Below are positions 23,565 to 41,819 of a stretch of DNA of 64,000 nucleotides, piece by piece. Under the pieces are notes generated by a model. That model made no database searches. It saw nothing but the letters and a program-made list of their open reading frames with translations, and had not been told where the DNA came from. Position numbers and translations under genes: made by a program. This DNA is from Minisyncoccota bacterium (lineage in GTDB: Bacteria > Patescibacteriota > Minisyncoccia > Phycocordibacterales > UBA9973), in NCBI GenBank assembly GCA_039915165.1, contig JBDSNU010000018.1, positions 166,617 to 230,616 on the forward strand. Direction: 5' to 3'. The number at the start of each line of letters is the position of its first letter. The stretch's first letter is position 1.

Positions 23565-23804
23565 ATGTATACTGTCTACGTCTTACAAGATGACAAAGGT
23601 AATTTCTATAAAGGATTCACCAATGATCTTGCTAGACGTTTCAGTGAGCATGTAACTGGTCAAACCAAAACAACCAGAAAGATGTCTGGATTAAAAATTG
23701 TATACACTGAAGAATACGAGACATTACAAGAAGCTCGTACCAGAGAAGTTTATTTTAAAACTTCTGCTGGTCGAAGATTCTTGAAAGAAAAATTGCGGTC
23801 GTAG
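23565..23804 (+). CDS. small GIY-YIG nuclease-domain protein
   Basis: 'VYVLQDDKGNFYKGFTNDLARRFSEH' GIY-YIG core; 79 aa; stop abuts tRNA-Asp. Confidence 0.7.
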   Translation: MYTVYVLQDDKGNFYKGFTNDLARRFSEHVTGQTKTTRKMSGLKIVYTEEYETLQEARTREVYFKTSAGRRFLKEKLRS

Positions 23805-23878
23805 CTCAGCTGGTTAGAGCGCCCGCCTGTCACGCGGGAGGTCGGCGGTTCAAGTCCGCTCGATCGCGCAGAACTGGA
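23805..23878 (+). tRNA. tRNA-Asp (GTC)
   Basis: acceptor GCGGTCG/CGATCGC, anticodon stem CCCGC/GCGGG with loop CTGTCAC, T-loop TTCAAGT. Confidence 0.85.
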
Positions 23879-25479
23879 CAAAGCACCCCTAAACGGGTGT
23901 TTTGTCCTTTTATGGCAAAGGTTTTTCTCAGTTCCGACCGATTTATTTCCTTCTCAACGGCCTTACGCTTCTTATTGATCGGTTCTAGCCATATACACGG
24001 TAAAATAAAGAGTTCTTCGTCCTTTATGGTGTGGTTCCAACCAAGATCCATAAGTATGCTTTTCTTCTCCTCTAGGGATGTTTCAGGGTTATCAAATTTG
24101 GCTTTGGCGGTATGAGCAAAGTTAAAGACCTTTTCAGTGTGCTGTAGCCAGTTACGGCCAGAATCCTGTGTTTCGCCAGCCTTTTGCTTTAAGACTGCCA
24201 TTCGGTCAGTCAAAGCCTTCTTTCTCGTGGCATATTGCTCATCATTGATAAGCTCACGCATTCGCATCGTTATAAGGCTGTCCAGCTCCCTCTGGGAGGT
24301 TTCTATGGCACTTATTTGTGATTGGTACACTGCTTCTCGTTCCTCTGCTTCCTCGGAGTATTCTTCCTGTAAAATGCGTAAAGCCCAGTCTCGGAATTTC
24401 TCTGAAATGGTGTACTTATCTATTTCTGTTTTAATCATCGTTTCTACATCTCCCACGGGCATGTATTTTCTCTGGGTGCAGTCCTGGGCTCCTTTCTTGC
24501 GGTGGGAACAATAATAGAACGTATAATCTTTGAGCTCATTGGTAGTTTTTACAAGCTTGGTTTTTTCACAAGCAGTAATGCTACTACCACACTCACCACA
24601 AAGCATGGCTCCTGTATAAGCAAACTCATGCGTTTTAGCCCGAGGTTTTCCATATCGTCCCAGAAGTTTTTGGACCTTATCAAATTCCGCAGTTGTTACC
24701 ATTGGTTCATGCTCACCGTTACTGAGCTCGCCTCTGTATAAAAACATACCCGTAAAAAAGATATTCGTAAAAATACCGTACATCGTACTTTTGTTAATTG
24801 GATTACCGCCGCGATGTCGTGTTTGTCGTGTTCTCATGCCCCAATCGTCATTCATTATTTTCAAAAGCTTGGGAATAGTGTATTCACCAGTCAGCATTAA
24901 CTGCCAGGCTTTCTTAACCAATTCAAAACGCTCTGGGTCATTGATGATATAGTTTTCTCCACGGACCTCATGTTTTGTATTTAAGTATCCGAGTGGTGCA
25001 AGAATAGGAGCATGACCCTTTGCGACTTTACTGTTTATTCCTCGGCGAACGCCCACTTTCATATCCAAAATAAACTGGTTAGCACTGCCACTTTCCACAC
25101 TGAAAATAATGGCATTGTCATTGGGCTTATATTCTCGGCTCGGCGTAAGAATTGATTGTATCAATCCCTGTTGGAGCATCCATTGGAGCTTGCCACTGTC
25201 GACTGGGTTTCTTGAGAGACGATTTAAGTTATAACAAATTATGCCGTTTGCTTCACCGTTGGTAACACGCTCAAGCATGGCATCGAAGATTGGTCGTTTG
25301 TTTGGTTCTTTTGCCGAACCTTCTTCAGTCAAAACATCTACTGGTTTTATACCGTAGCGTTTTGCAACCGCTTCGTCTTCTCGGAGCTGGTCCGGGATAG
25401 ATTGAGCCTGTTTTTCATCTCCTTCTTGCGACTTGCGAGCATAAATGAAGTATTTAATTTTTGAATAATCATTAGTCAT
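23830..25479 (-). CDS. large serine recombinase (resolvase-type catalytic domain + recombinase domain + zinc ribbon)
   Basis: N-terminal 'YARKSQEGDEKQAQSIPDQ' (catalytic Ser/Arg region), C-terminal 'CGECGSS...YYCSHRKKGAQDC'; 549 aa; 3' end overlaps tRNA-Asp antisense. Confidence 0.75.
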   Translation of the reverse strand: MTNDYSKIKYFIYARKSQEGDEKQAQSIPDQLREDEAVAKRYGIKPVDVLTEEGSAKEPNKRPIFDAMLERVTNGEANGIICYNLNRLSRNPVDSGKLQWMLQQGLIQSILTPSREYKPNDNAIIFSVESGSANQFILDMKVGVRRGINSKVAKGHAPILAPLGYLNTKHEVRGENYIINDPERFELVKKAWQLMLTGEYTIPKLLKIMNDDWGMRTRQTRHRGGNPINKSTMYGIFTNIFFTGMFLYRGELSNGEHEPMVTTAEFDKVQKLLGRYGKPRAKTHEFAYTGAMLCGECGSSITACEKTKLVKTTNELKDYTFYYCSHRKKGAQDCTQRKYMPVGDVETMIKTEIDKYTISEKFRDWALRILQEEYSEEAEEREAVYQSQISAIETSQRELDSLITMRMRELINDEQYATRKKALTDRMAVLKQKAGETQDSGRNWLQHTEKVFNFAHTAKAKFDNPETSLEEKKSILMDLGWNHTIKDEELFILPCIWLEPINKKRKAVEKEINRSELRKTFAIKGQNTRLGVLCPVLRDRADLNRRPPA

Positions 25480-25480: not shown

Positions 25481-25654
25481 TTACTTGTTACTTGCCTTCT
25501 TCAAGGAGGCATCAAAATCCTTTTTCTCAATGCGGAACTCTTTGCCGAGCTTATAGGCCTTGAGCTTCTTTGCGCCAATCCATCGATAGATCGTCATAAC
25601 ATTCATCCCTAGTTTGTCGGCCAAATCTTTGGCGGTATAAAAGTCTTTTTCCAT
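25481..25654 (-). CDS. small HTH DNA-binding protein (excisionase/AlpA/MerR-like)
   Basis: 57-aa ORF (below ORF-track cutoff) 'MEKDFYTAKDLADKLGMNVMTIYRWIGAKKLKAYKLGKEFRIEKKDF...'; 2 nt upstream of recombinase start. Confidence 0.5.
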   Translation of the reverse strand: MEKDFYTAKDLADKLGMNVMTIYRWIGAKKLKAYKLGKEFRIEKKDFDASLKKASNK

Positions 25655-25691
25655 ATCTTAATAATACTTTACTATTCTTTACATTGCAAGT

Positions 25692-26807
25692 CTATGAAAT
25701 ACGCTTCATTAACTTCTCCAAAATAGCTTTTTCTTGTTCTGAGAGCATAAGGCTATTGCTTGCGCCTTCCTGGACATCTTTCAATTTCTGAACGATTTTA
25801 ACGGCACTTTCACTGTTCATACTGCCGTAGCCATATGATCCAAAAGTGGTACCGACATTCTCATGTCCTAGATTCATACTGATTGCTCGCTTTTCCTCCT
25901 CAGTCAGTCGCTTCTTGCTCAGAATGTTTACGACCAAGTGGCGGAATGAGTGCGGATGGAAATAGGGCAGGGATACGTTCTTGCATCGTTTCTCAAAAAC
26001 CTTGCGTGCTGCTCCTGTGGCCACCCAAGCATTTTGCCCGACTGTTTGTTTACTGTAGCTGTGTTCTCCATCGACAAAAGCTCCTTCTGTTATCGGAAAG
26101 ATTGGGTCATCAGACTGAAAGTCCTTGGACTCAAGGTATTCATACCATTCCATAAAATACTTTTCTGGATCGTCCCAGCCAATAGGGAAGAAAGTAGTGA
26201 GTATTCTTTTTGAGTTCTTTGTTTTTACTCCGTCACCTGGGTTCTGATCTATTTGCTTCAGTTCCTTATCAAAGGATTTCATTTTCAGTGAAATGATGGC
26301 AGAAATACGAGCACCAGTGATGAGAGCGAAGGAGATAAGAGCTCGATCGCGCATTTCAATTTCTGACTTCCCATTAATACCTTCAATTATTTTTCTGACA
26401 TCATCAAATGTGGGCATTTTCTTTGTGGTCCCTGATCGTGCTATTTGAGCATCAGCTTTTGAGAGACGTAAATAGTCCACATCGCTTTTGAGTATCTTGC
26501 TCTTGTAGCCTGGTTGTTCTGATAGCCATATAAAAAACTTCTTTACACGGCGCAGGTAGTTGGACTGAGTAACAAGCGATATTTTCCCTGACTTTGTTTT
26601 TGAAGGTCGAGTATTGATCCAGTCTGCAAATCCAATTGCCCTGGACTTATCGTAAGCGGAAAAGTCTTCATTTTTGGTGAAAGTTTCCCATTGGTTAATT
26701 GCATCAGCATGGGTAATCACGGAACTTTTGGCAAAACCACGAGCTCCTTTTAACTGTTCAAAGAACTCTCTTTTTATGCGCTCATTTTCATAGGTTGTTT
26801 TTGTCAT
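25692..26807 (-). CDS. tyrosine-type site-specific recombinase/integrase
   Basis: box I 'ALITGARISAI', box II 'HPHSFRHLVVN', catalytic Tyr region 'LGHENVGTTFGSYGY'; N-terminal SAM-like domain. Confidence 0.8.
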   Translation of the reverse strand: MTKTTYENERIKREFFEQLKGARGFAKSSVITHADAINQWETFTKNEDFSAYDKSRAIGFADWINTRPSKTKSGKISLVTQSNYLRRVKKFFIWLSEQPGYKSKILKSDVDYLRLSKADAQIARSGTTKKMPTFDDVRKIIEGINGKSEIEMRDRALISFALITGARISAIISLKMKSFDKELKQIDQNPGDGVKTKNSKRILTTFFPIGWDDPEKYFMEWYEYLESKDFQSDDPIFPITEGAFVDGEHSYSKQTVGQNAWVATGAARKVFEKRCKNVSLPYFHPHSFRHLVVNILSKKRLTEEEKRAISMNLGHENVGTTFGSYGYGSMNSESAVKIVQKLKDVQEGASNSLMLSEQEKAILEKLMKRIS

Positions 26808-27046
26808 AGAGGTTTATTGAAGGGTAAGGGAGTTGGCTTAAATGGTTTCAACGCACTTACCATGTTTTCGAGTAATGTAATGCCAGGCAGTAAATCATTT
26901 GCCGCCTGAAGCTGTTTTTTCTTGATACAGGCTTTCTGTATTTTTTTCAGATGTTCTATTTCTGACTCCAGTGCTGACGTAACAAATGGGACATTTTTAG
27001 GACTGATATTGAGAGGTATTTTTTCCTCAATGGGTGTTATTTCCAT
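26804..27046 (-). CDS. hypothetical small protein upstream of integrase
   Basis: 80-aa ORF overlapping integrase start by 4 nt. Confidence 0.3.
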   Translation of the reverse strand: MEITPIEEKIPLNISPKNVPFVTSALESEIEHLKKIQKACIKKKQLQAANDLLPGITLLENMVSALKPFKPTPLPFNKPL

Positions 27047-27163
27047 AAATTATTTTGGATTATTTTAGTAAGGTATTTTGTCATCGTAATAAGATGCATG
27101 ATTAGTGGTTATAGAGGACATTTAAGTGGGAAGGGAGAATATCATATAGTCCTTTTGGGAGAG

Positions 27164-27508
27164 TTAGATTGTCCGACTCATTCTTCCGTTACAGACACGA
27201 CATAGGGCCATTTTTTGTTTCTGCAGCTTTCTGAGTGAGCCCCGTTTCGCACTTCTTGCGGCTTTGCAGGTAAGACAATAAAACTCACTCCGCTTCAGTT
27301 TGGTTTTCTTTTTCAAGTCCTTTTTTCTTAGAAACTCCTTTATGTCCGAGCCAAGTATGAGGATCCGCTTTTTACCGTTAGTGATGATTGGGAGGCCGTT
27401 TTCTATCCAGCGATGGCAAGTCTTTTCACTGACCTCCAAGCTCTCTGACATTTGTTTAATCGTATAGCTCATTGAGCCATAGATTTTTTGACGGTTAATC
27501 CTTGTCAT
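27164..27508 (-). CDS. HTH + C-terminal zinc-ribbon DNA-binding protein
   Basis: 'YTIKQMSESLEVSEKTCHRWIENG' HTH; 'CLTCKAA...CRVCNG' Cys4. Confidence 0.4.
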   Translation of the reverse strand: MTRINRQKIYGSMSYTIKQMSESLEVSEKTCHRWIENGLPIITNGKKRILILGSDIKEFLRKKDLKKKTKLKRSEFYCLTCKAARSAKRGSLRKLQKQKMALCRVCNGRMSRTI

Positions 27509-27695
27509 CGGATTATTTGCGAGGAATAATAATCGTTCGGTCTTTCTTTTGAGCCGTCGGACGATATATCAAAGAAATCAAATGCAAAAGCTTCGTGCCA
27601 TTTTCATAGGCATCTTCTTTGCTGATTTCTACTCCAAAGTGTTCTTTGTACAACTGTTGGAACTCTTTGATATGTTCGTCTGAAAGGACCACGAG

Positions 27696-27977
27696 TTACT
27701 CGCTGTACAGCTTGTTCTTAAGGGCTTTCAGATGGTCAAAGTATGATCTGGCTTTGACTTCCAATTTGTCGCTGAAATATTTATTGGCTACTTCTTCAAT
27801 GCCAGCTTCTTTCTTAAACACAAACAGTGCTTTGCGTGGGTCACTTTTTTGGACCGTGAGAAGCTCAAAATCCGCACAGAGGAGTGCGGCTGATACACCG
27901 AGGTCGTAGGTAGTCCATACAAACGATGGGTCATCGAGCGGTATATTGCTCGATGACGATACTTTATTACTTTTCAT
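27696..27977 (-). CDS. DUF5659-like small protein (often integrase-associated)
   Basis: 'TTYDLGVSAALLCADFELLTVQK...ALFVFKKE' pattern; 93 aa. Confidence 0.3.
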   Translation of the reverse strand: MKSNKVSSSSNIPLDDPSFVWTTYDLGVSAALLCADFELLTVQKSDPRKALFVFKKEAGIEEVANKYFSDKLEVKARSYFDHLKALKNKLYSE

Positions 27978-28154
27978 ATAGTAATGTTGTTAGGGATTTG
28001 TAATAGGGTGCATAACGACTATGCACTGTATTAATCTTGGTCTTCTAACAATGTTCTGCGTATTTCTTGTGATTTCTGGAAATAAAAAAACACCCTTGTT
28101 ATTCAAGAGTGTTTTATGGAAGCAATAGAGATTTTTTCAAGAAAAGTCACTGCA

Positions 28155-28180
28155 ATAAAAAAAGAGCCCGAAGGCTCTTG
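28155..28180 (-). terminator. rho-independent terminator (minus strand)
   Basis: hairpin agagcccgaaggctct preceded by A9 (T-tract on minus). Confidence 0.7.
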
Positions 28181-28189
28181 AGTGGTGAT

Positions 28190-29086
28190 TTAATTTGGTA
28201 ACTTTAGCTCACACTCCTTTAGCAGGATAAACTTGCTCACAAGCCCATACTTTAGGGCGAGTGTCTTAAAGTCATCAAGATGGTCTGCCCCATAGAGGAC
28301 AACGGCTTTTTTCTTGCGGCCTTTCTTCAAAAGCTCTTCTGCCGTTCTTGCAAGGGCGATTTCGTTCCTGCATCTAATCAGAAGCGGAACGAACTGGTTG
28401 ATAATCTTGGACCGAGTACTACTCGAAACGCTGTTTTCGTCCATCTTAAGGATTTCTGATTCAGCGAAGTTTATCCAATACGGGTTAGTGCCAATAACAT
28501 AGGGCTTTTGCTGGTTTTTCATAAGCCTGTCTACAACGTAGTCATACTTACGAAATCGCTCAAACACTGCAACCGCACGCTGGGCTGGGATGATCGTATC
28601 GATTCCGTACCTGAGCTTCGCGTCCTTACTTACGTCTGCAACAGTTTCCTGTACAAGGTTCTGGTATCTAATCCTGCCGTGAGCGGTAGAGTGCTCGGCC
28701 CCGATAAACAGATACTTGCTTGTATCAATAAGGTTGCCTATAGCGCATTGGCATTTGCCAATAACGGTGTCACTAACAGGCTGCTGCATACCAAATGAGC
28801 TATGAAGCATACCAATGAAATCAATCTTTACTCCCTTAATTGAGTCAAGCACTTTTGTTTCTGCTACTAAGTGCGGATAATCTGCCTTAATAGAGTCGAG
28901 CAGGGTAGCAAGTACTGGTTCTGAAAAAGCACCGAACCATTGGGGTAATTCTCCAATCGCACCTTCCGCAGCTATGGTTGCGTGCGGGGAATTTTGAAAG
29001 TCGTTTGATTGCTGTTGCTCATGGTTTTCATGGCAAGAGAAAAGGCTAAATAACAAGCCAGAGAGAAGAATAAAGACTTTTTTCAT
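28190..29086 (-). CDS. lipoprotein, TraB/GumN-family-like
   Basis: lipobox 'LLSGLLFSLFSC'; 'IDFIGMLHSSFG' and 'VLYGADHLDD' resemble the two conserved TraB/GumN motifs. Confidence 0.35.
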   Translation of the reverse strand: MKKVFILLSGLLFSLFSCHENHEQQQSNDFQNSPHATIAAEGAIGELPQWFGAFSEPVLATLLDSIKADYPHLVAETKVLDSIKGVKIDFIGMLHSSFGMQQPVSDTVIGKCQCAIGNLIDTSKYLFIGAEHSTAHGRIRYQNLVQETVADVSKDAKLRYGIDTIIPAQRAVAVFERFRKYDYVVDRLMKNQQKPYVIGTNPYWINFAESEILKMDENSVSSSTRSKIINQFVPLLIRCRNEIALARTAEELLKKGRKKKAVVLYGADHLDDFKTLALKYGLVSKFILLKECELKLPN

Positions 29087-29177
29087 ATCTTTTATTTTAT
29101 GGTTTAAGTAACTATTGTTTTCATCACAATAGCATATTTATTAAAAAAGTCAAATATAGTGCAATGAAATAAAAAGA

Positions 29178-29214
29178 AACCCCTGCTATGAAGCAAGGGG
29201 CTTTTTGTTTTTTT
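29178..29214. terminator. bidirectional terminator
   Basis: hairpin cccctgc-N7-gcaagggg with flanking A- and T-tracts. Confidence 0.6.
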
Positions 29215-29224
29215 GATCTGATTA

Positions 29225-29683
29225 CTAAGGCTGAATGTTGATAAGCTGGGAATACTGACTGGCATACATATACGATGTCGAGGACTTGGTCTGGCTTTGG
29301 TCCTGATATTGAACGATGACGTATATTTGAAATACCTTTCCAAACTGAGTGTATCCGCCAGTATTCTGGTTATCAAACCCAGGCAGCGTAAACGTCTCCG
29401 CGCCATCATCCGCAGTCCCGTCACCATCTGGTGGACCATAAATAGTCTGTGGTACTAACGGGATGTATCCACCATATGTTGTATACATTTCAGCCGTTAC
29501 GGAGCTCCCTTCGGGCATACCAGCCGTCTTCCAGGTAATCGAGATTGCGCCATGCGGATGGTACACAATATCCTTAACGCTAATCGTTATGGAAGGTGTA
29601 ATCGCTGGGTTAATAATCGTTTCTTTCTTACAAGACAGCAGGGTGGTCATTACAACCATTGCGAGTAATAGGGTTCTTTTCAT
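29225..29683 (-). CDS. lipoprotein, hypothetical
   Basis: 'MKRTLLLAMVVMTTLLSC' lipobox. Confidence 0.45.
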   Translation of the reverse strand: MKRTLLLAMVVMTTLLSCKKETIINPAITPSITISVKDIVYHPHGAISITWKTAGMPEGSSVTAEMYTTYGGYIPLVPQTIYGPPDGDGTADDGAETFTLPGFDNQNTGGYTQFGKVFQIYVIVQYQDQSQTKSSTSYMYASQYSQLINIQP

Positions 29684-29774
29684 CTTTATTGTTTTTAAGT
29701 TTGATTTTATATTAACACAATTTATATAAAAAGTCAATAGAACAAAAGCTTATCAAGTTAGCTATACTTTTGGC

Positions 29775-30629
29775 ATGAATAACAAAGTCATTGTGCCCGT
29801 CCTTATCGGTATTATTATCATCGGAGGGATGGCGTACGCTTCCATACTGAGGAAGTCTCCAACAGTAAATTCTCCAACAGCAGAGACTGCTTCTACAATA
29901 TCTCCTGCCTCTACTTCAACAGACCCTAACCAACCACAATCCGTTGCCTCAGCCACAGCTTCATCAAAAGACTGCAGTACTGACATGGGTTGTTTTATTG
30001 CTCAGGCGAATACCTGCGGTCCTGCATCCGTGGAGTTCACCGCTACCATTCTCAAGGGACTAACAGGAACTTCCCATATCGTTATTGGTAAAAGTACAAA
30101 AGCTGGCTCATGTACATTTAACCAGCGGACTGACAAGGTTACAGTGCGTGGACAGAGTGACACCTCTACAGTAGGGACCACAATAGCTTGTCCAGCTATT
30201 CCATCGGCGAAACTTGCCGCAATCCTTACCAATTGGAATGAAAGCACTTTCAGTTCTGAAGACTTCGATGGATATAACTGCAAGACCACTCTTCCAAAGG
30301 CGCTGATTGATGCAATGGCTAAGCAAGACAATACAACACCAGTTGACTCGCAGCCTGACGCCAATACTGCCCACGAGACATTCACGGGATTGGGCGAGGG
30401 CAGTTCTGTCGGTAGAAACGCATACCAGTTTTATGTATCTACAGTAACAAGTAATACAGCTACTATTAAATTGACGGGCCCAGAGGTTAACAATGTGCTT
30501 CCTCCTTCTGTTACTGTCACTCTTACGCTCAATGTTCCTCAATCATACTTAGGCTACAGCTTTACATTGACTGGTGTTAAGTATGACTACGATGAATACA
30601 TCGGAACGATAACCGTAAACCAACTATAA
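29775..30629 (+). CDS. secreted hypothetical protein
   Basis: N-terminal TM/signal, Ser/Thr/Pro linker, Cys-containing globular domain. Confidence 0.4.
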   Translation: MNNKVIVPVLIGIIIIGGMAYASILRKSPTVNSPTAETASTISPASTSTDPNQPQSVASATASSKDCSTDMGCFIAQANTCGPASVEFTATILKGLTGTSHIVIGKSTKAGSCTFNQRTDKVTVRGQSDTSTVGTTIACPAIPSAKLAAILTNWNESTFSSEDFDGYNCKTTLPKALIDAMAKQDNTTPVDSQPDANTAHETFTGLGEGSSVGRNAYQFYVSTVTSNTATIKLTGPEVNNVLPPSVTVTLTLNVPQSYLGYSFTLTGVKYDYDEYIGTITVNQL

Positions 30630-30636
30630 TAACAAT

Positions 30637-31284
30637 ATGAAAATAATAAATCAGACAGTTGATCGGATGGAATTGAAAGATGGAAGCGGAGGAAGGATTT
30701 TCTTCGGGCTCGTATTTGTTATTGCAGGTATCGGCAGTAGCTACGTTGCATATGCAAATCATACTGGCGGCTTCTTCCCATATATATTTTCAGCTGTATT
30801 TGCGGTGATAGGTTTGCTGACAGCGGTTAATGCACCCTTTATAAATGTTTCTATCGATAAGTCTGCTGGAAAAATTGTTATCAAGAAAAAGACCATGATA
30901 AGTGGCAGCAACAGTGAATACGATCTAACAAATGTTCAGACCGTGGAGCTTCGCGAGGGTACATATATCATTCAAAATAACAATGGTCAGCAACAGGGAT
31001 TTTCAATGCAATCAACTGCACAGCAGGGACTTTCGTATCAGACCATACTCGTAATGAAAGATGGAACAGAGGTACCCTTGGAAAACATTAAAAACCCATC
31101 GTCAAATTCCAATACGATAAATATCATGGGCGCAAGCACCCCCGTATTGATGGGTGGCAGGGGAGCAATGTTCGCAATATCAAATCAGGTCGCGCAGTTT
31201 ATCGGCGTTCCTTTTAAGGAAATCATGCCAAATGGTATGGCAGCAAACGCTCCTCTAGTTAATTCTTCTGAAATAGTCAATTAA
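30637..31284 (+). CDS. hypothetical membrane protein (2 TM + beta-rich domain)
   Basis: two N-terminal hydrophobic helices; 8-nt spacing to upstream gene. Confidence 0.4.
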   Translation: MKIINQTVDRMELKDGSGGRIFFGLVFVIAGIGSSYVAYANHTGGFFPYIFSAVFAVIGLLTAVNAPFINVSIDKSAGKIVIKKKTMISGSNSEYDLTNVQTVELREGTYIIQNNNGQQQGFSMQSTAQQGLSYQTILVMKDGTEVPLENIKNPSSNSNTINIMGASTPVLMGGRGAMFAISNQVAQFIGVPFKEIMPNGMAANAPLVNSSEIVN

Positions 31285-31387
31285 GACGCTCAACAACAGT
31301 CTTTGTGTGCATCCTAAGCTAGGGGTATTAAAAACAGCGTAAAGGTGTTAAATTACCCTCATCCAGTAATGGACCATTACAATTACT

Positions 31388-32776
31388 ATGAGCATCATAA
31401 AGGCCTCCGACAAACAAATACTTGAAAAGCTCTTTAAGATGGAAGAGGGATATGTACTTGGCTTTTCAGACAAAAAAATGGCTCAATTCTTTGAGGATGA
31501 GTATAAGATTGCCGTATATGATGAAAAATATAATTTTGATTTTTCTAGCAAGTCAAAGGCAAATCGTCTACGAGGCATATGGAAAAAAGAAGATGATAAA
31601 ACCGTAGGTGCTATTATTTTATCCCTTGTAGGGTGCGCGGAGAGCGACTTGTTAACAAAGGGAGGAGGAATACCGTCTTCTGAGAAAGATCTAATTAACA
31701 AAGCTCGAGACATTGGGCTCACCATGCTGTTCTCTGAATTTTCAGAAGATTCTCGACCAGAAGTTCAGGCAATGAAAAACAAGTCTCAACTCATAAAAGA
31801 GTTCAATGCCACCGATTTCAAGTCATTGGAGACAGATGAAAGAATATATCTACTTAAGGTTTTTTATTCATACTATGAGGCAATAGTTGCCGCCTATTAC
31901 GGCTCTGGTCTATTTTTTGTGAGTTCAGGCATTGATAACCTTAATGATTATTTCAAGATATTAAGAAAAAGACTGTGTGAACTGGTTGATATGGATGACA
32001 CTTTTTCAGAGATAAAAAATGGCCGATTTTATGAAGAGGTAATTGATCCTATGACCAGCCTCTATTCCAGTGCTGAATTTTTAGATGTTACATGGGATAT
32101 TATGTATCCCGCAATCATCAATTTACGAGAAGAAATAGCCGACAAGGATCTATTTGAAAATAATTCTGAAATACATAAAGTTGGTTCGGGGATTTCCAAT
32201 TTTTTGAATGAAATATCAAAAGAAATTGATACCTTAAAAAAGTATTTAAATCAAAAAACCAAGAATTTTTATGAAAAAGAAATGCCGAATACGAAGGAGC
32301 AATTTGATAACTCTTCCAATTCTAAGGATGGACAGGTCGTAAGGCATGAAGTCAAACATTTTTTTGAAAATAGCATTCAGGAAAAACCGATTGACTTACA
32401 TCATAAGCATGACAATGATACTGGTAAGAAGTCATTTTATATTACAAAAAAGGGCGACGATTTTTTCTATAAAGGTCAGTACCTGAGCCTTTCAAAAACA
32501 GCCCTTTACTACACAATCTTTTGCGCTCTTTATGCCAAACTTCCAGAGGGCGGTGAAATTACCTATGATGCCATGGGTAATGAGATCAAGAGCCGCTTGC
32601 CACTAACCAAAGGTAAAAGCTCGGAAGATATGCGGAAGTACATTCAGGACAACCTTACTGGCAATAGTAATGGATTTATGAGATATGCGAAGATACCTGA
32701 AAATGAAGATAATGGAAGACCATTAATAGAAATAGTTCGAGGTAAGGGCATTATATTTAACAACAAAAAAGGATAA
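31388..32776 (+). CDS. hypothetical protein (462 aa, cytoplasmic)
   Basis: long ORF, no recognisable motif; first unit of repeat-delimited array. Confidence 0.4.
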   Translation: MSIIKASDKQILEKLFKMEEGYVLGFSDKKMAQFFEDEYKIAVYDEKYNFDFSSKSKANRLRGIWKKEDDKTVGAIILSLVGCAESDLLTKGGGIPSSEKDLINKARDIGLTMLFSEFSEDSRPEVQAMKNKSQLIKEFNATDFKSLETDERIYLLKVFYSYYEAIVAAYYGSGLFFVSSGIDNLNDYFKILRKRLCELVDMDDTFSEIKNGRFYEEVIDPMTSLYSSAEFLDVTWDIMYPAIINLREEIADKDLFENNSEIHKVGSGISNFLNEISKEIDTLKKYLNQKTKNFYEKEMPNTKEQFDNSSNSKDGQVVRHEVKHFFENSIQEKPIDLHHKHDNDTGKKSFYITKKGDDFFYKGQYLSLSKTALYYTIFCALYAKLPEGGEITYDAMGNEIKSRLPLTKGKSSEDMRKYIQDNLTGNSNGFMRYAKIPENEDNGRPLIEIVRGKGIIFNNKKG

Positions 32777-32834
32777 TTTAGGACAGAGCTCAAGAAACAC
32801 TGGTGTGGTAATCAATAACTGCAGTTCTCACTTC

Positions 32835-32887
32835 GTCCACCAGTCCGCGCAACGAAAAAGAACCCTAGAAATAGGGTTCTTTTTCTG
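32835..32887 (+). repeat. intergenic repeat copy C (diverged) with terminator hairpin gaaccctagaaatagggttc + T-tract
   Basis: 'ccaccagtccgcgcaacgaaaaag' + hairpin matches copies A/B; hairpin identical to copy A except one base. Confidence 0.6.
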
Positions 32888-32923
32888 TAGGTAAAGCGGA
32901 ATTTGAACTGGTATACTGTGCTT

Positions 32924-33478
32924 ATGAAAAAAGTATTTATCATCCACGGTTTCGAAGGCAGTCCAAACGGCGCTTGGCGAGGATGGCTCATGTCTGAGCT
33001 TGAGAAGGATGATGTCTATGCTTGTGCATTACCTATGCCGAATCCTGAGGCACCGATCCAAAAGGAATGGGTTGATGAAATAGCGAGAGTTGTTGAGCAC
33101 AGCAAGGACGATGAATTGTATTTGGTAGGGCATAGCCTTGGATCAACCGCTATTTTGAGATACCTAGAAACAACAAAGATAATGTTTAGTGGAGTCATTC
33201 TTGTCTCTGCTCCTGTGCAAGAAACATTTAATAGAAAGATTGATAATTTCTTTCAAGTTTCATTTGACTATGAAGCTATCAAGACGAAAGTAAAGAAGAA
33301 AGTGGTTATTCACGGAGGTAATGATCCATATGTGCTTATTGAAAAACATGGTGATGTTTTGGTAAAAGAGCTTGATGCAGAATATTTTGTTATAAAAGAG
33401 GGAGGGCACCTTAATGGTTCTGCCGGTTGGCATGCATTGCCCGAGTGTCTAGAAGCTCTTAATAGAATGCTGAAATAG
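32924..33478 (+). CDS. RBBP9/YdeN-family serine hydrolase (alpha/beta fold)
   Basis: 'VFIIHGFEGSPNGAW' and nucleophile elbow 'GHSLGS'. Confidence 0.65.
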   Translation: MKKVFIIHGFEGSPNGAWRGWLMSELEKDDVYACALPMPNPEAPIQKEWVDEIARVVEHSKDDELYLVGHSLGSTAILRYLETTKIMFSGVILVSAPVQETFNRKIDNFFQVSFDYEAIKTKVKKKVVIHGGNDPYVLIEKHGDVLVKELDAEYFVIKEGGHLNGSAGWHALPECLEALNRMLK

Positions 33479-34435
33479 ATGAGTAGTTTCATTGAAAACA
33501 CACAACGATCTGAAGCCATTGCACGCATAGTCAAAACCAAAGGCTTTGATAAAAAAGTCAGCGAACTGTCAATCGCTGTCATTGATCTAAAGAATCCATC
33601 AGAAATTTTTGGAGCAAACCTTGATGCTTTTATGTATCCGGCCAGCGTGTTTAAGATCTTCATTGGGGCTGAAGTACTCAGGCAAGTAGAAGAAGGAAAA
33701 CATACTCTTGCTCAAGAGATACTAGTAAAACTCTTGAACGAAATACCGAAAGAATTGAGGCTTTATCCTGATCCTCGAACAACCCTAAAGACTGGAGACA
33801 AGGTAGCGATTGATAAGTTGCTCTATCTCATGCTTGCCGTCAGCGACAATACCGCCTCGAACTGCCTGTATGAGCTGGTAGGGATGGAAAGTATAATTAA
33901 GAATATTGTTGAGCCGAATGGATGGCAAGGTACCGGGCTTACCCCGTACTTCATCGATCAGGTTAAACAGCATAAACCATATCGCCATACCGAGATGCTG
34001 CAGACGAATGCGCGGCACGTTGCCGAGTTCTTTGCATTGGTGGAGCAGGAAAAATTGATAAGCCCATTTGTTTCAAGAAAGTTGAAGGAATATATGCTTA
34101 AGTTTGACCGCACCTCAAGGCACGGATATTCCTATCCAGAATTTCTGCGCTACAGAAAGGGCGGCTACTTGGAAACAAATCTATATACTTCTTTTTACAG
34201 AAAGAGCGGGTTTGGCTTTGATATGGTAAAAGGATTCGGTGCGCTTGTTAAAAACATTGTTACCAAAGGATGGGCGTTCCAGCGGTACATGCATGATGCG
34301 GGCGTGATAGAAGGGAAGAACTCGAAATACGTTGCTGTAATCTTTACGCTCTCAAGGCAGATGAATCCTAGAAAGTTCTTTCAAATGAATGGGTTGGCAA
34401 AAGAACTATTTGAATATATGGAAGCTCAAAGTTAA
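33479..34435 (+). CDS. class A beta-lactamase-related serine hydrolase
   Basis: SxxK 'ASVFK', SDN 'VSDNTASN'; start codon overlaps upstream stop. Confidence 0.55.
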   Translation: MSSFIENTQRSEAIARIVKTKGFDKKVSELSIAVIDLKNPSEIFGANLDAFMYPASVFKIFIGAEVLRQVEEGKHTLAQEILVKLLNEIPKELRLYPDPRTTLKTGDKVAIDKLLYLMLAVSDNTASNCLYELVGMESIIKNIVEPNGWQGTGLTPYFIDQVKQHKPYRHTEMLQTNARHVAEFFALVEQEKLISPFVSRKLKEYMLKFDRTSRHGYSYPEFLRYRKGGYLETNLYTSFYRKSGFGFDMVKGFGALVKNIVTKGWAFQRYMHDAGVIEGKNSKYVAVIFTLSRQMNPRKFFQMNGLAKELFEYMEAQS

Positions 34436-34437
34436 TT

Positions 34438-34869
34438 ATGAAAACTATTTATAAAATCGCCAACTCAATTCGTCGTATCTATTGGTACATTTTCCGTCCG
34501 CATACCCAAGGCGTTAAATGCCTTATTGAATGCAATGGAGAATATCTATTAATTCAAACAAGTTATTCAGGAAAGTATTGGACGTTGGCCGGAGGGGGTG
34601 TGGGTAGAAACGAGGGTCCTGAAACTGCTGCAATTAGGGAAGTAAATGAGGAACTTGGAATTAAGGTTGGTTCTATAAAGCAGATCGGACAGTATGAAAG
34701 CACTATTGAATATAAGAAAGATACTGTTTATTTATTTCATGCCCAAGTTTCAAGTAAGGACTTTAACTCAAACAGCACGGAGGTTTCTGATGCTCGCTGG
34801 TTTTCTAAAAAAGAATTGCCCGAGAATCGCTCAAGGGCATTGAATGAGTCAATACTTAAACAGACTTAG
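34438..34869 (+). CDS. NUDIX hydrolase
   Basis: Nudix box 'GGGVGRNEGPETAAIREVNEELGI'. Confidence 0.85.
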   Translation: MKTIYKIANSIRRIYWYIFRPHTQGVKCLIECNGEYLLIQTSYSGKYWTLAGGGVGRNEGPETAAIREVNEELGIKVGSIKQIGQYESTIEYKKDTVYLFHAQVSSKDFNSNSTEVSDARWFSKKELPENRSRALNESILKQT

Positions 34870-34887
34870 AACTGATATAATGATCTC

Positions 34888-35430
34888 ATGAAAGAAATAA
34901 TTATTATAGGAACACTTCACCACGAATTTACCCCAAAGGCCGAGCTTGAGGAAATCATCAAGGGAATCAATCCGGACAAGGTTCTTGTCGAACTGTCTCC
35001 GGAGGAGTTGCTTCGGCCTCGAGAGGATTCTATCCGTGACGAGATGTTCTTCGCCCACGACTGGGCCGTTGAAAATGGTAAGCAGGTAGACGTATTCGAT
35101 ATCGAAAACCATACGCTTAAGGATGGCTTTACTGGAAGAGAGGTAGGTTTAATCCAGCTAGGTTCCGAGATGGGGGAATTACTGAAGGTGCATTCATGGA
35201 AAGAGCAGAACAGCGAGAATGCCTGGAAGACTCCAGAATATACTAAAGTAAATGATCTTATAATGGAAAAATACTTTAACAGTGAAAAGCTCGAGGAAAG
35301 GAATCAGACAATGCTGCAAAACATCAAGGACAAGGTCATCGAGGGAAAGAACCTTGTGATTGCAGGCACGGCGCACCTTACGTTTTTCAAGGAGCAGCTG
35401 CCGAACGCTATACTGCCGTTGAGGAAGTAG
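34888..35430 (+). CDS. TraB-family protein (short form)
   Basis: 'IIIGTLHH' and 'LVIAGTAHL' conserved TraB/GumN motifs. Confidence 0.55.
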   Translation: MKEIIIIGTLHHEFTPKAELEEIIKGINPDKVLVELSPEELLRPREDSIRDEMFFAHDWAVENGKQVDVFDIENHTLKDGFTGREVGLIQLGSEMGELLKVHSWKEQNSENAWKTPEYTKVNDLIMEKYFNSEKLEERNQTMLQNIKDKVIEGKNLVIAGTAHLTFFKEQLPNAILPLRK

Positions 35431-35433
35431 TTT

Positions 35434-35587
35434 TTAAATTCGGCACATATACAAACCCCTTATACTCCCGTATCCTAGTTCCAACTGCCTCCGCCAGGGC
35501 GCGCACATTGTCCGCCATAGTCACGTCTGACGTGACGAAGGACGAAGGAGGAACGAAAAAGAACCCTAGGAATAGGGTTCTTTTTCT
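35434..35587 (+). repeat. intergenic repeat copy A (with 44-nt insertion bearing palindrome gtcacgtctgacgtgac) + terminator hairpin gaaccctaggaatagggttc
   Basis: ~65-nt 5' module ~80% identical to copy B; shared 'ccagggcgcgca(a)cgaaaaa'+hairpin+TTTTTC. Confidence 0.7.
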
Positions 35588-35636
35588 ATTGGGTTAAGTA
35601 GACCCTTTTGACTTTCTGCAAAATTACTATAGTGTA

Positions 35637-36218
35637 ATGGAAATAAACAATTTCGTACAATTAAAAAATAATCTAATGACCGAACAAGACGTACTAACGC
35701 TTATTTCAAATGATCCATGGATGATGGAAGTGCTTCGCGCTGCGGAAACACTTCATTTACCACAATGGGCGATCGGTGCAGGATTTGTCCGTAATAAAGT
35801 CTGGAATGAATTATCTAGCTATTCTAATAGAGTTCATTCTACAGATATTGATCTCATCTATTTTGATCCTACAAATACTAACGAGGAAGTAGAAAAGGAT
35901 TATGACCGACTGCTAAGGGATATTATAAACGTAGAATGGTCTACGAAAAACCAAGCACGAATGTATTTAGTTGATAATGAAAAACCCTATTCTTCTACAG
36001 TAGATGCATTAGCTCACTGGCCTGAAACGGCTACCGCTATTGCTGTAACTATTGAAGATGGAACATTAAAACTTATTGCTTCTTATGGAATTCATGATCT
36101 TGTAAATCTTATTGTGCGACCGTGTCCAAAATTTAATAAGGGAATGGAGAGGGTAAAAGAACGAATGGAAAAGAAGAAGTGGCTTGAGCAATGGCCTGGT
36201 CTAACGTTAGAAAATTAA
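35637..36218 (+). CDS. uncharacterised nucleotidyltransferase-family protein (PF06042-like)
   Basis: 'WAIGAGFVRNKVWNELS' and 'DIDLIYFD' motifs. Confidence 0.4.
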   Translation: MEINNFVQLKNNLMTEQDVLTLISNDPWMMEVLRAAETLHLPQWAIGAGFVRNKVWNELSSYSNRVHSTDIDLIYFDPTNTNEEVEKDYDRLLRDIINVEWSTKNQARMYLVDNEKPYSSTVDALAHWPETATAIAVTIEDGTLKLIASYGIHDLVNLIVRPCPKFNKGMERVKERMEKKKWLEQWPGLTLEN

Positions 36219-36245
36219 ATCCTTACAATACTTTGTGAGGATTTT

Positions 36246-36353
36246 TTCAATTCTGGAACATATACAAAACCTCTATATTCCCTTATCCTAGTTCCAACAG
36301 CCTCTACCAGGGCGCGCAACGAAAAACACCCTTCAAATGAAGGGTGTTTTTCT
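36246..36353 (+). repeat. intergenic repeat copy B + terminator hairpin cacccttcaaatgaagggtg
   Basis: 'ttcaattctggaacatatacaaaacctctatattcccttatcctagttccaacagcctctaccagggcgcgcaacgaaaaa' + hairpin + TTTTTC. Confidence 0.7.
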
Positions 36354-36400
36354 ATGGTAAATGTTATAATTTAAGTAATTATTATTTAGCCTTTTATTTT

Positions 36401-40519: not shown

Positions 40520-40543
40520 TGTGCGTTACTAAGCAAAGCACAT
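40520..40543 (+). repeat. REP-like palindromic repeat L1 (tgtgcgttactaagcaaagcacat)
   Basis: near-identical to copy at 41251 and inverted relative to 40588 copy. Confidence 0.7.
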
Positions 40544-40587: not shown

Positions 40588-40612
40588 ATGTGCTTTGCTT
40601 AGCAACGCACAT
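40588..40612 (-). repeat. REP-like repeat L2 (inverted copy, atgtgctttgcttagcaacgcacat)
   Basis: reverse complement of L1 with 1 mismatch; abuts transposase ATG. Confidence 0.7.
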
Positions 40613-41251: not shown

Positions 41252-41275
41252 TGTGCGTTGCTAAGCAAAGCACAT
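41251..41275 (+). repeat. REP-like repeat R1 (atgtgcgttgctaagcaaagcacat)
   Basis: same orientation as L1, 1 mismatch; begins at the transposase stop. Confidence 0.7.
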
Positions 41276-41701: not shown

Positions 41702-41746
41702 CTGTGTACTAAACCCTCGCTATTCGTAGTGGGGGTTTTATTATTG

Positions 41747-41819
41747 AGCCGTTGATCGGGATTGAACCGATGACCTCATTCTTACCATGAATGTGCTCTA
41801 CCAACTGAGCTACAACGGC
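41747..41819 (-). tRNA. tRNA-Thr (GGT)
   Basis: acceptor GCCGTTG/CAACGGC, anticodon stem CATTC/GAATG loop ATGGTAA, T-arm ATCGG-TTCAATC-CCGAT. Confidence 0.8.

What the first reader, a model, noticed from the sequence alone, without database searches (positions are those of the whole stretch)
32835..36353. Three copies of a conserved intergenic repeat delimit a same-strand array of unrelated accessory genes
Copies A (35434-35587) and B (36246-36353) share about 80% identity over a ~65-nt module ending 'ccagggcgcgca(a)cgaaaaa', followed by a GC-rich terminator hairpin and TTTTTC. Copy C (32835-32887) keeps the 3' third and a near-identical hairpin. Each copy follows a gene or gene block, all on the plus strand: [462-aa unknown] C [hydrolase / beta-lactamase-like / NUDIX / TraB] A [nucleotidyltransferase] B [493-aa unknown]. 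This resembles cassette boundaries (attC-like sites, MITE scars or shared 3'-UTR/recombination modules) and is not explained by coding or simple termination.
Basis: seen in the sequence. Interest (0 to 1): 0.7.

Follow-up and report, generated by a model that had tools for sequence, protein, structure and literature searches.

The report
Serine-recombinase attachment-site scars at tRNA-Asp
The three repeats are the right-hand junction scars of mobile elements that a large serine recombinase inserted one after another at the end of a tRNA-Asp gene, and their conserved part is the detached, antisense last ~20-35 codons of the recombinase gene itself.

Summary
All three copies share a 29-nt core (3 hits against 0 expected), and A and B are 83% identical over 75 nt.

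The conserved part is not an attC site, a MITE or an RNA. Read on the minus strand, it encodes the C-terminal tail of a large serine recombinase (LSR): R-x-L-V-D-E-V-R-T and onward. An intact LSR lies at 23830-25479 (-). Its last 13 codons are antisense tRNA-Asp.

A syntenic Nomurabacteria MAG has an empty site. Against it, window 23870-32851 (~9 kb) is an insertion exactly at the tRNA-Asp 3' end. The left junction is tRNA|LSR. The right junction is copy C followed by the tRNA's original terminator. So attP lies inside the LSR gene, and integration swaps the protein's tail.

Among 120 homologues, 66 carry the module-type tail and 24 carry a tRNA-antisense tail. Seven of seven loci checked overlap tRNA-Asp.

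Copies A and B are the same kind of scar, from an older related lineage that lost its recombinase. They leave small accessory-gene cassettes stacked downstream.

The kind is known: tandem accretion, as in the Dehalococcoides ssrA islands and SCCmec. The variant is unusual: an LSR whose own gene spans attP, in CPR bacteria.

The parts
23795..23869 (+). tRNA-Asp (GTC). Its 3' end is the left (B) arm of the chromosomal attachment site.
   Evidence: ARAGORN and Rfam. Empty-site homologues in L034, L044 and L042 end CGCGC followed by an A-rich stretch and a terminator hairpin.
23860..23907 (.). attL junction: tRNA-Asp 3' end ...TCGATC-GC-GCA, then the P' arm GAACTGGACAAAGCACCCC...GGGTGTTTTGTCC. The P' arm is a terminator-like hairpin embedded in the LSR codons KGQNTRLGVLCPVL.
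   Evidence: Sequence. Hairpin -23.4 kcal/mol, z -5.25. Homology to L034 breaks here.
23830..25479 (-). Large serine recombinase, 549 aa. The last 13 codons (..R|DRADLNRRPPA*) are the antisense of tRNA-Asp.
   Evidence: Resolvase + Recombinase + Zn_ribbon_recom. 43% identical to the L047 LSR. Translation.
25481..25654 (-). HTH_17 excisionase-like protein, 57 aa, abutting the LSR start. Candidate recombination directionality factor.
   Evidence: Pfam HTH_17 1.9e-12 and PHROG excisionase. Homologues sit next to the LSR in L056 and L050.
25692..26807 (-). Tyrosine recombinase, 371 aa, carried as an accessory gene of this element.
   Evidence: Phage_integrase 2e-14. A homologue is present only in L056 among nine LSR-carrying related loci searched.
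26804..32776 (.). The rest of the ~9-kb integrated element: a second HTH_17 (27164-27508), DUF5659 (27696-27977), several unknowns, and + strand cargo at 29775-32776 (284, 215 and 462 aa, no family).
   Evidence: DUF5659 and the 462-aa protein recur in related elements.
32790..32851 (-). Copy C, P arm: the detached LSR tail (L)RGLVDEVRTAVIDYHTSVS*. It is in frame with the LSR at the shared CGC codon.
   Evidence: 2e-7 against the P0093 tail; reconstructed 556-aa LSR.
32852..32933 (+). Copy C, B' arm: ACGAAAAAG, a terminator hairpin, and the promoter-like TTGAACTGGTATACT. This is the original downstream flank of tRNA-Asp.
   Evidence: Homologous to L034 2585-2677, which lies directly after that MAG's tRNA-Asp. 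Hairpin.
32924..35430 (+). Cassette block 1: serine hydrolase, class-A beta-lactamase-like, NUDIX and TraB-like genes.
   Evidence: Pfam. The beta-lactamase-like and TraB genes occur in a different order in L034.
35408..35506 (-). Copy A, P arm: the LSR tail remnant VRALAEAVGTRIREYKGFVYVPNLKTTSSTAV*.
   Evidence: (8e-6 against the P0088 C-terminus).
35506..35587 (+). Copy A, right side: a ~46-nt insert with its own hairpin GTCACGtctgaCGTGAC (possibly a P' remnant, not shown), then the B'-type ACGAAAAAG plus hairpin.
   Evidence: 35552-35587 is 94% identical to L034 5607-5642.
35637..36218 (+). Cassette 2: NTP_transf_6 nucleotidyltransferase, a single-gene cassette.
   Evidence: Pfam 1.7e-51.
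36215..36319 (-). Copy B, P arm: the LSR tail remnant (L)RALVEAVGTRIREYRGFVYVPELKKSSQSIVRI*.
   Evidence: (7e-5 against P0088; 5e-4 against P0109).
36319..36353 (+). Copy B, B' arm: ACGAAAAAC plus a terminator hairpin.
   Evidence: It resembles the L034 tRNA-Asp terminator.

Best explanation
The three repeats are attR-type junctions left by integrative elements that a large serine recombinase (LSR) inserts at the 3' end of tRNA-Asp.

In this LSR family the element's attachment site (attP) lies inside the 3' end of the recombinase gene. The crossover is at a palindromic CGCG, just after the conserved codons ..LRP-x-x-R.

What integration does:
- It joins the LSR gene to the tRNA (attL). The protein then ends in 11-13 codons read from antisense tRNA-Asp.
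- It carries the original tail-coding segment (the P arm) to the far end of the element. There the P arm abuts the tRNA's former terminator (the B' arm).

Shown: copy C is the right junction of the resident ~9-kb element, 23870-32851. That element carries the LSR, an HTH_17 excisionase-like gene, and cargo.

Inferred:
- Excision (attL x attR) would fuse the LSR back to the copy-C tail, giving a 556-aa protein like its free-form homologues.
- Copies A and B are the same kind of junction from earlier insertions by a related LSR lineage with a longer tail. Their recombinase modules are gone. Their cargo (the hydrolase/beta-lactamase-like/NUDIX/TraB block, and the nucleotidyltransferase) remains as recombinase-less cassettes. 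Each begins with a terminator and promoter (B') and ends with a P arm.
- Such cassettes could be moved in cis when an element excises using a more distal attR (accretion and mobilisation).
For: 1. Minus-frame peptides of A, B and C match the extreme C-termini (aa ~530-560) of LSR homologues, with E-values 2e-7 to 7e-5 in a database of the 120 homologues. Plus-frame peptides match nothing below E = 0.79.
2. In L047, L049 and L051 the same core lies inside intact LSR genes.
3. Of 120 homologues, 66 end in x-LVDEVRT-type tails, 24 end in tRNA-antisense tails (RPDLNRQPPA-like), and 13 stop exactly at ..LR[GDES].
4. All seven tRNA-tail loci with DNA overlap tRNA-Asp in antisense: the window, L048, L050, L053, L054, L056 and L057.
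5. Empty-site test: L034 2503-2611 matches window 23782-23893, and L034 2585-2677 matches window 32846-32933. The ~9 kb between them is therefore an insertion at the tRNA 3' end. Unoccupied sites are seen in L034, L044 and L042.
6. Independent elements repeat the layout. L054 has the tail remnant LRGLVDEVGTAIRQHNSYIYIPNLQ 9.4 kb upstream of its tRNA-fused LSR. L056 has two remnants bracketing an MFS gene.
7. Half-site geometry: taking the GC of CGCG as centre, GTTC lies at positions 18-15 in all 4 tRNA (B) arms and at 23-20 in all 5 P arms. GTCC lies at 12-9 in the B, P and P' arms. A zinc-ribbon-domain (ZD) motif shifted 5 bp towards the centre in attB is the published LSR rule (PMC3783163).
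8. Joining the LSR to C, A or B at the shared codon gives uninterrupted ORFs of 556, 568 and 570 aa.
Against: - No recombination was observed. No circular junction or empty site from the same population was available.
- Canonical LSRs do not recombine attP with attL or attR, so how stacks of P|B' junctions accumulate is inferred, not shown.
- L034 has three such junctions downstream of an unoccupied attB with no LSR in the 8 kb held. L049 has an LSR remnant at the tRNA and an intact LSR 4 kb away. These need extra steps: alternate-site excision, deletion or homologous recombination.
- The B' arms show no clear ZD motif.
- The 46-nt insert in copy A is unexplained.
- The element also carries a tyrosine recombinase.
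- The period-3 variation inside the core is partly an artefact of the search pattern I designed.
Confidence: 0.85

Rival explanations
1. The tyrosine recombinase at 25692-26807, not the LSR, integrates the element at tRNA-Asp. On this view the LSR gene merely lies next to the junction.
For: Tyrosine integrases are the usual tRNA-targeting enzymes: 44.5% against 4.9% for serine integrases (PMC7192596). A Phage_integrase gene is present in the element.
Against: A homologue is found only in L056. It is absent from L047, L048, L049, L050, L051, L053, L054 and L058, although L048, L050, L053 and L054 have the same tRNA-Asp|LSR junction. The junction falls at one fixed codon of the LSR in all loci, and LSR tails switch class there. 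The identity block shared by attL and attR is only about 6 nt (CGCGCA). This is short for a tRNA-targeting tyrosine integrase but normal for an LSR.
Confidence: 0.06
2. The repeats are integron-like attC sites (or another cassette-recombination site) that fold as single strands and are recombined cassette by cassette.
For: The array is on one strand and holds unrelated small accessory genes, each followed by a repeat. A tyrosine recombinase lies within 10 kb. L034 and L056 show single-gene units bracketed by repeats.
Against: There are no R'' (RYYYAAC) / R' (GTTRRRY) pairs on either strand. The conserved 29-75 nt has no inverted partner; only the variable terminator folds. The conserved part is homologous to LSR coding sequence.
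Confidence: 0.03
3. The modules are functional in their own right. They could be small antisense ORFs (20-36 aa) or 3'-UTR/sRNA elements that regulate or stabilise the upstream mRNAs, duplicated with their terminators.
For: An NTG codon precedes the conserved Arg in every copy. Copy A has ATG-GCG-GAC-AAT-GTG upstream. The modules lie in 3' UTRs directly before terminators.
Against: On the minus strand, in B and C, the putative start lies about 3-5 nt after a strong bidirectional terminator, leaving no room for a promoter or RBS. The codon before Arg takes all four first bases, including CTG. Homology stops exactly at the LSR crossover. There is no Rfam match and no conserved structure outside the terminator.
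Confidence: 0.04
4. The repeats are only decayed 3' fragments of LSR pseudogenes left by random deletion. They have no relation to a crossover site.
For: L036 and L049 keep additional LSR-coding remnants beyond the core. The insert in copy A may be such a remnant.
Against: Seventeen independent copies end at the same nucleotide (CGCGCA|N). The flank after copy C is the tRNA-Asp downstream flank of the empty site. Random deletion would not give a fixed breakpoint.
Confidence: 0.05

Closest known systems
Dehalococcoides ssrA-specific genomic islands (McMurdie et al. 2011, PMC3146451)
   Same: A ~540-aa CcrB-like large serine recombinase sits on the reverse strand directly next to attL, at the 3' end of a tRNA-like gene. 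Several tandem islands lie downstream, bounded by repeats. A conserved motif upstream of each repeat does not match the target gene (a P arm). Many islands lack an integration module and were interpreted as cis-mobilizable elements.
   Different: The target here is tRNA-Asp in CPR/Paceibacteria. The repeat shared with the target is only ~6 nt instead of 20 bp. The conserved 'motif' is shown to be the recombinase's own C-terminal coding tail. There is no second small serine recombinase. Cassettes can be a single 0.6-kb gene.
SCCmec / SCC composite islands (CcrAB/CcrC at the rlmH 3' end). From my own knowledge, and as summarised in PMC3146451.
   Same: LSR-driven insertion at the 3' end of a conserved gene. 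Tandem cassette arrays are delimited by direct repeats, including recombinase-less pseudo-SCC elements.
   Different: In SCC the repeat restores the end of the target gene (rlmH). Here the repeat encodes the end of the recombinase gene, on the opposite strand from the cargo.
CIMEs and tandem accretion of ICESt1-type elements (Pavlovic et al. 2004, as cited in PMC3146451)
   Same: att-flanked segments that lost their recombination module lie next to an element with an intact integrase at the same tRNA-type site. This gives a route to co-mobilisation.
   Different: Those elements use tyrosine integrases with long identical core repeats. For an LSR the needed site pairings (alternate attR use) are not established.
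Archaeal SSV-type 'suicidal' tyrosine integrases (review PMC8371274)
   Same: The attachment site lies inside the integrase gene, so integration into a tRNA gene partitions the gene. The detached piece is found at the other end of the element.
   Different: Here the enzyme is a serine recombinase and the host is bacterial. Only the last ~20-35 codons are detached, and they are replaced by 11-13 tRNA-antisense codons, so the catalytic and DNA-binding domains stay intact. The review states that self-disrupting recombinases are found exclusively in Archaea.
Integron attC gene cassettes
   Same: A same-strand array of small, unrelated accessory genes, each followed by a recombination-site repeat.
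   Different: There is no attC architecture, no IntI/attI/Pc platform, and the repeat derives from recombinase coding sequence.

Membership tests
Large-serine-recombinase integrative element (attP x attB) | Recombinase with Resolvase catalytic domain + Recombinase domain + zinc ribbon | tested here: met
   Window 23830-25479 hits PF00239, PF07508 and PF13408. 1986 homologues at E<=1e-20.
Large-serine-recombinase integrative element (attP x attB) | Discrete insertion relative to an empty site, with the recombinase gene at one end | tested here: met
   blastn against syntenic L034 places the boundaries at 23869/23870 and 32851/32852. Unoccupied sites in L034, L044 and L042.
Large-serine-recombinase integrative element (attP x attB) | Short att sites with a central dinucleotide, and the ZD motif 5 bp closer to the centre in attB than in attP half-sites (PMC3783163) | tested here: met
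   GTTC lies at positions 18-15 in 4 of 4 B arms and at 23-20 in 5 of 5 P arms. GTCC lies at 12-9 in the B, P and P' arms. The centre is assumed to be the GC of CGCG. The right (B') arms show no clear motif.
Large-serine-recombinase integrative element (attP x attB) | Recombination directionality factor and demonstrated integration/excision | not testable with these tools
   There is an HTH_17 candidate at 25481-25654. No activity data.
Cis-mobilizable element / tandem accretion array | att-bounded segments lacking a recombinase, adjacent to an element with the cognate recombinase at the same target | tested here: met
   Segments 32852-35506 and 35552-36319 hold no recombinase and are bounded by P|B' junctions. 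The LSR element lies directly upstream.
Cis-mobilizable element / tandem accretion array | Co-excision or independent mobilisation of the recombinase-less segments | not testable with these tools
   The P arms of A and B differ from C at 9 and 8 of 29 core positions, so recognition by the resident LSR is uncertain.
Integron gene cassettes (attC) | R''/L''...L'/R' imperfect inverted repeats (RYYYAAC ... GTTRRRY) folding as a hairpin with extrahelical bases | tested here: not met
   No R''/R' pair in any copy on either strand. The conserved region is unpaired in the MFE and centroid folds.
Integron gene cassettes (attC) | IntI integrase with adjacent attI and Pc at the head of the array | tested here: not met
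   The only tyrosine recombinase is 6 kb from copy C, inside the LSR element. It is absent from eight of the nine LSR-carrying related loci searched. The IntI-specific insertion was not examined.
MITE / REP-type dispersed repeat | Terminal inverted repeats, target-site duplication, many dispersed copies in both orientations | tested here: not met
   Three copies in 64 kb, all + strand, all within 13 kb of tRNA-Asp. No inverted arms apart from the terminator.
Known non-coding RNA family (Rfam 15) | Match to a covariance model at or near the gathering score | tested here: not met
   Only tRNAs at gathering threshold. In E-value mode the best hits are 29-32 bits against cut-offs of 49-60, all on the terminator.
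Self-partitioning ('suicidal', SSV-type) integrases | att site inside the integrase's own gene, so integration splits the gene | tested here: met
   Tail classes, the junction and the reconstructed ORF.
Self-partitioning ('suicidal', SSV-type) integrases | [quoted passage not shown] | tested here: not met
   The enzyme is a serine recombinase. Only the post-domain tail is exchanged.

The most novel reading that the evidence does not exclude
The tRNA-Asp locus of these CPR bacteria works as a serine-recombinase cassette platform. On this reading, recombinase-less units (B' terminator/promoter + one or a few genes + P arm) circularise and are captured or released individually, through attL x attR-type reactions with the resident LSR. 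The exchange of the LSR's C-terminal tail (module-encoded against tRNA-antisense-encoded) acts as a built-in sensor of integration state that sets stability or directionality. That would be a functional analogue of an integron built on a serine recombinase, and the first bacterial self-partitioning integrase with a regulatory role.
Probability: 0.15. Interest if true: 0.85.

Novelty: new variant of a known kind. Interest (0 to 1): 0.55.

Why it matters
- **It explains a feature that looks like a novel cassette signal.** The repeat is the footprint of a defined enzyme, and this yields precise attB, attP, attL and attR sequences for an uncharacterised LSR clade.
- **Serine integrases are rarely reported at tRNA genes.** PMC7192596 calls such use previously unreported and in need of proof. 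Here seven independent tRNA-Asp|LSR junctions and an empty site support it.
- **Integrases whose att site lies in their own gene have been described as exclusive to Archaea** (PMC8371274). This is a bacterial, serine-family counterpart, in which only the tail is swapped.
- **It shows how CPR/Paceibacteria stack accessory genes next to one tRNA.** These genomes are tiny and few mobile elements are described for them. The stacked genes include hydrolases, NUDIX, nucleotidyltransferase, NYN, Fic, MFS and restriction-modification systems.
- **The defined LSR/att pairs could become genome-engineering reagents** once tested.

Tried and rejected
- **tRNA or tRNA-like origin of the core.** No T-arm pairing can be drawn in either orientation, and ARAGORN and Rfam find nothing. 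The resemblance to the tRNA-Asp 3' end (CGCGCA, GTCC, GTTC) is better read as half-site mimicry.
- **Read-through or frameshift extension of the upstream + strand genes.** The + frame of the module is in frame with the upstream stop only in copy B. It is out of frame in A and in L034 copy 3 (and direct reading).
- **Plus-strand coding.** The + frame shares third positions with the minus frame, so the period-3 signal cannot choose the strand. blastp does: only minus-frame peptides hit LSR tails.
- **Diversity-generating retroelement template/variable repeats.** A/B differences are not adenine-specific, and no reverse transcriptase lies nearby.
- **Collection scans.** Viral contigs gave 0 hits for both patterns. 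In genome contigs, 34 of 35 hits to the 20-mer were chance matches in GC-rich genomes; only L034 was real. Three of 12 metagenome hits (L041, L043, L046) were a gut-bacterial coding sequence.
- **Exact-protein look-up of the nucleotidyltransferase.** Not on record.
- **attR of L050 and L053.** No core within the 10 kb held.
- **Period-3 entropy analysis of the core.** I treat it as weak, because the invariant positions were fixed by my own search pattern.

Full report
**1. The observation**

The sequence at 32600-36600 and the repeat finder confirm three same-strand copies.
- A 64-nt family lies at 32823-32886, 35524-35587 and 36290-36353.
- A 75-nt pair, 83% identical, lies at 35431-35505 and 36244-36318.

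All three share the core AGTTCNNACNNCNTCNNCCAGNNCGCGCA. It occurs nowhere else in the window even with three mismatches, and shuffles give 0 expected.

Each copy is followed by a strong A-run/stem/T-run hairpin. Copy A has about 46 extra nt between the core and ACGAAAAAG.

Rfam finds only tRNAs in the window, and nothing near threshold in the region.

**2. The repeat elsewhere**

A genome scan with a 20-mer gave one true hit, L034, a Candidatus Nomurabacteria MAG. L034 holds three copies of the core within 2 kb. Each lies directly after the stop codon of an unrelated + strand gene: a 253-aa protein, an NYN protein and a Fic-like protein. Each is followed by a different terminator.

A metagenome scan with the degenerate 29-mer gave nine further true loci. 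Viral contigs gave none.

So the conserved unit is the core and the sequence to its left. It is not the hairpin.

**3. The core is coding sequence on the minus strand**

Variation among copies falls mainly at every third base. I note that my search pattern fixed the other positions.

The minus frame reads [M/L/V]-R-x-L-V-D-E-V-R/G-T. Several copies continue to a second motif, [IV]-Y-[IV]-P-x-L. Window A and B read FVYVP(N/E)LK at that point.

In L047 this frame is the end of a 560-aa ORF with Resolvase, Recombinase and zinc-ribbon domains. That is a large serine recombinase, or LSR.

blastp-short of the minus-frame peptides of A, B and C against 120 LSR homologues hits only their extreme C-termini (2e-7 to 7e-5). 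The plus-frame peptides hit nothing. A tblastn of 66 LSR tails against the window finds exactly these three places.

**4. Two classes of LSR tail, and the junction with tRNA-Asp**

The window has its own LSR at 23830-25479 on the minus strand, 43% identical to that of L047. Its last 13 codons (..CPVLR|DRADLNRRPPA*) are the antisense of the 3' half of tRNA-Asp, 23795-23869.

Among the 120 best homologues the sequence is conserved up to ..LRP-x-x-R and then splits:
- 66 continue with the module-type tail (x-LVDEVRT...). Some are close to A/B, for example P0088, RALRDDVGTAIRDYSDYLHIPDLK.
- 24 continue with tRNA-antisense peptides (RPDLNRQPPA, RRDSNPQPLA).
- 13 end exactly at that point.

Every tRNA-tail locus for which I obtained DNA overlaps tRNA-Asp in antisense: the window, L048, L050, L053, L054, L056 and L057.

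**5. Empty-site test**

L034 is syntenic with the window: gatA, a ~200-aa gene, two tRNA-Met, then tRNA-Asp. There the tRNA-Asp is followed directly by a terminator hairpin and a promoter-like TTGGAACTGGTATACT.

blastn maps L034 2503-2611 to window 23782-23893, and L034 2585-2677 to window 32846-32933. Window 23870-32851 is therefore a ~9-kb insertion exactly at the tRNA 3' end.
- The left junction is tRNA|GAACTGGACAAAG... This is a hairpin of -23.4 kcal/mol lying within the LSR codons KGQNTRLGVLCPVL. It replaces the native tRNA terminator.
- The right junction is the copy C core followed by the original terminator and promoter.

L044 and L042 give two more unoccupied sites.

The insertion carries the following:
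- the LSR;
- an abutting HTH_17 excisionase-like gene;
- a tyrosine recombinase;
- a second HTH_17 gene;
- a DUF5659 gene;
- genes of unknown function;
- three + strand cargo genes.

**6. Site anatomy**

I took the centre to be the GC of the palindromic CGCG shared by all sites. On that assumption:
- GTTC lies at positions 18-15 in all four tRNA (B) arms and at 23-20 in all five P arms.
- GTCC lies at 12-9 in the B, P and P' arms.
- P and the reverse complement of P' share 9-13 of 24 positions.

A zinc-ribbon-domain (ZD) motif lying 5 bp closer to the centre in attB than in attP is the published rule for LSR sites (PMC3783163).

Joining the window LSR to C, A or B at the shared Arg codon gives open frames of 556, 568 and 570 aa. 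The first ends ..CPVLRGLVDEVRTAVIDYHTSVS*. Compare P0089..CPVLRGLVDEVGTAVVLHYMAQGQI.

**7. Independent replicates**

L054 has a tRNA-Asp-fused LSR. 9.4 kb upstream, on the same strand, it has the remnant LRGLVDEVGTAIRQHNSYIYIPNLQ. L056 has two remnants bracketing an MFS gene.

In L049 the tRNA-Asp is followed by a P' arm plus about 70 nt of LSR 3' remnant, then three cargo genes, then core|P' and an intact LSR. That is a tandem arrangement.

**8. Interpretation**

Shown:
- The conserved part of the repeats is the detached C-terminal coding tail of an LSR gene.
- It is cut at a fixed point that coincides with the element/chromosome boundary.
- Copy C is the right junction (attR = P arm + B' arm) of a resident LSR element at tRNA-Asp.

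Inferred:
- The LSR catalyses attP x attB, with attP inside its own gene.
- Excision would restore the long tail.
- A and B are attR-type scars of earlier elements from a related lineage that lost their recombinase modules. The hydrolase block and the nucleotidyltransferase are left as recombinase-less cassettes.
- Stacks arise by accretion. For example, an element excises using a more distal attR, carries the intervening cassette to a new host, and later leaves by its own attR.

This last step is the weakest. Canonical LSRs do not use attL or attR as integration targets, and L034 shows three junctions behind an unoccupied attB.

**9. Rivals**

- **The tyrosine recombinase as the integrase.** This is unlikely. 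Its homologue is present only in L056 among nine LSR-carrying loci searched, while the junction is the same in loci without it.
- **attC sites.** There is no R''/R' pair and no folding of the conserved part.
- **MITE or REP elements.** Copy number, orientation and the absence of inverted arms argue against this.
- **A functional small ORF or sRNA.** On the minus strand there is no room for a promoter or RBS after the terminator, the first base of the preceding codon is variable, and there is no RNA family or conserved structure.
- **Random LSR pseudogene decay.** Seventeen copies end at the same nucleotide.

**10. Comparison with known systems**

The closest described case is the Dehalococcoides ssrA genomic islands (PMC3146451):
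- A CcrB-like LSR on the reverse strand lies next to attL.
- Tandem islands are bounded by repeats.
- A conserved non-target motif lies upstream of each repeat.
- Many islands lack integrases and were read as cis-mobilizable elements.

SCCmec composites and ICESt1 CIMEs follow the same logic.

Four things differ here:
- The P arm is the recombinase's own reading frame, so integration exchanges the protein's tail. Self-partitioning of integrase genes is described for archaeal tyrosine integrases and was stated to be exclusive to Archaea (PMC8371274).
- The target is a tRNA gene. This is rare and called unproven for serine integrases (PMC7192596).
- The hosts are CPR bacteria. No paper in the library combines Patescibacteria, serine recombinase, integrative and tRNA.
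- Cassettes can be a single gene.

**11. Verdict**

The finding is a new variant of a known kind, of moderate interest. The mechanism of cassette stacking and any role of the tail swap remain open.

Noticed in passing
window 23531-23804: A GIY-YIG nuclease ORF (23565-23804, 79 aa, Pfam 5e-11) lies between tRNA-Met and tRNA-Asp. Its stop codon falls inside the first bases of tRNA-Asp. It is preceded by a 26-nt fragment (23531-23556) that resembles the 5' part of tRNA-Asp. The segment is absent from syntenic L034 but present in L044. It may be a homing-endonuclease-type insertion with a duplicated tRNA 5' end.
   Followed up: partly
window 23876-23907 (also L048, L049, L053): The LSR codons KGQNT..G..CP are encoded by a strong terminator-like hairpin plus U-run. 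After integration this lies directly behind tRNA-Asp, replacing the tRNA's native terminator (-23.4 kcal/mol, z -5.25). A protein-coding segment appears to double as a surrogate terminator.
   Followed up: partly
window 32900-32928, 34864-34892, 55312-55340: A repeated promoter-like motif TT/AGAACTGGTATAMT ends about 7 nt before an ATG (repeat finder family D5). This suggests leaderless or very short-leader transcripts for these genes.
   Followed up: no
window 40520-40543, 40589-40612, 41252-41275: Three copies of a 24-nt palindrome, TGTGCGTTACTAAGCAAAGCACAT (83-96% identical), bracket ORF 40595-41251, close to tRNA-Thr at 41746-41819 (family D6). Unexplained.
   Followed up: no
P0053, P0063, P0066, P0072, P0080, P0081, P0104-P0106, P0108, P0116-P0118: Thirteen LSR protein models in the public collection end exactly at the crossover codon (..LRG..LRD..LRE). 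They are probably gene calls cut at contig ends or at the tRNA. This suggests assemblies often break at this junction.
   Followed up: no
L049 5840-5914 and 1660-1772: In this MAG the tRNA-Asp is followed by a P' arm and ~70 nt of LSR 3' remnant. An intact LSR with the long tail lies 4 kb further on, behind HAD/PfkB/SIS cargo. This arrangement needs either attP x attR-type recombination or homologous recombination between LSR 3' ends.
   Followed up: partly
L051 10001-21500: A module-tail LSR (P0109) in a contig that looks like Bacteroidota lies at the edge of a defence island with SMODS/CBASS, Abi_alpha, a SymE toxin and RuvC-like genes. The LVDEVRT tail is therefore not restricted to CPR elements.
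   Followed up: no
L050 4304-6310 / 1764-4301; L053 1-3035; L054 2341-6328: Related tRNA-Asp LSR elements carry type III-like restriction-modification pairs (N6_N4_Mtase + ResIII). One also carries a reverse transcriptase and a Toprim primase. The element family moves defence cargo among CPR genomes.
   Followed up: no
L036, L039, L042, L045: In several metagenome contigs the core lies within about 0.1-1 kb of tRNA-Thr (and, in L045, tRNA-Arg) genes rather than tRNA-Asp. In L045 a complete 31-aa tail (MRGLVDDVRTGFERENDATIYIPDLQPIALV*) lies 84 nt after tRNA-Arg with no cargo gene in between.
   Followed up: no
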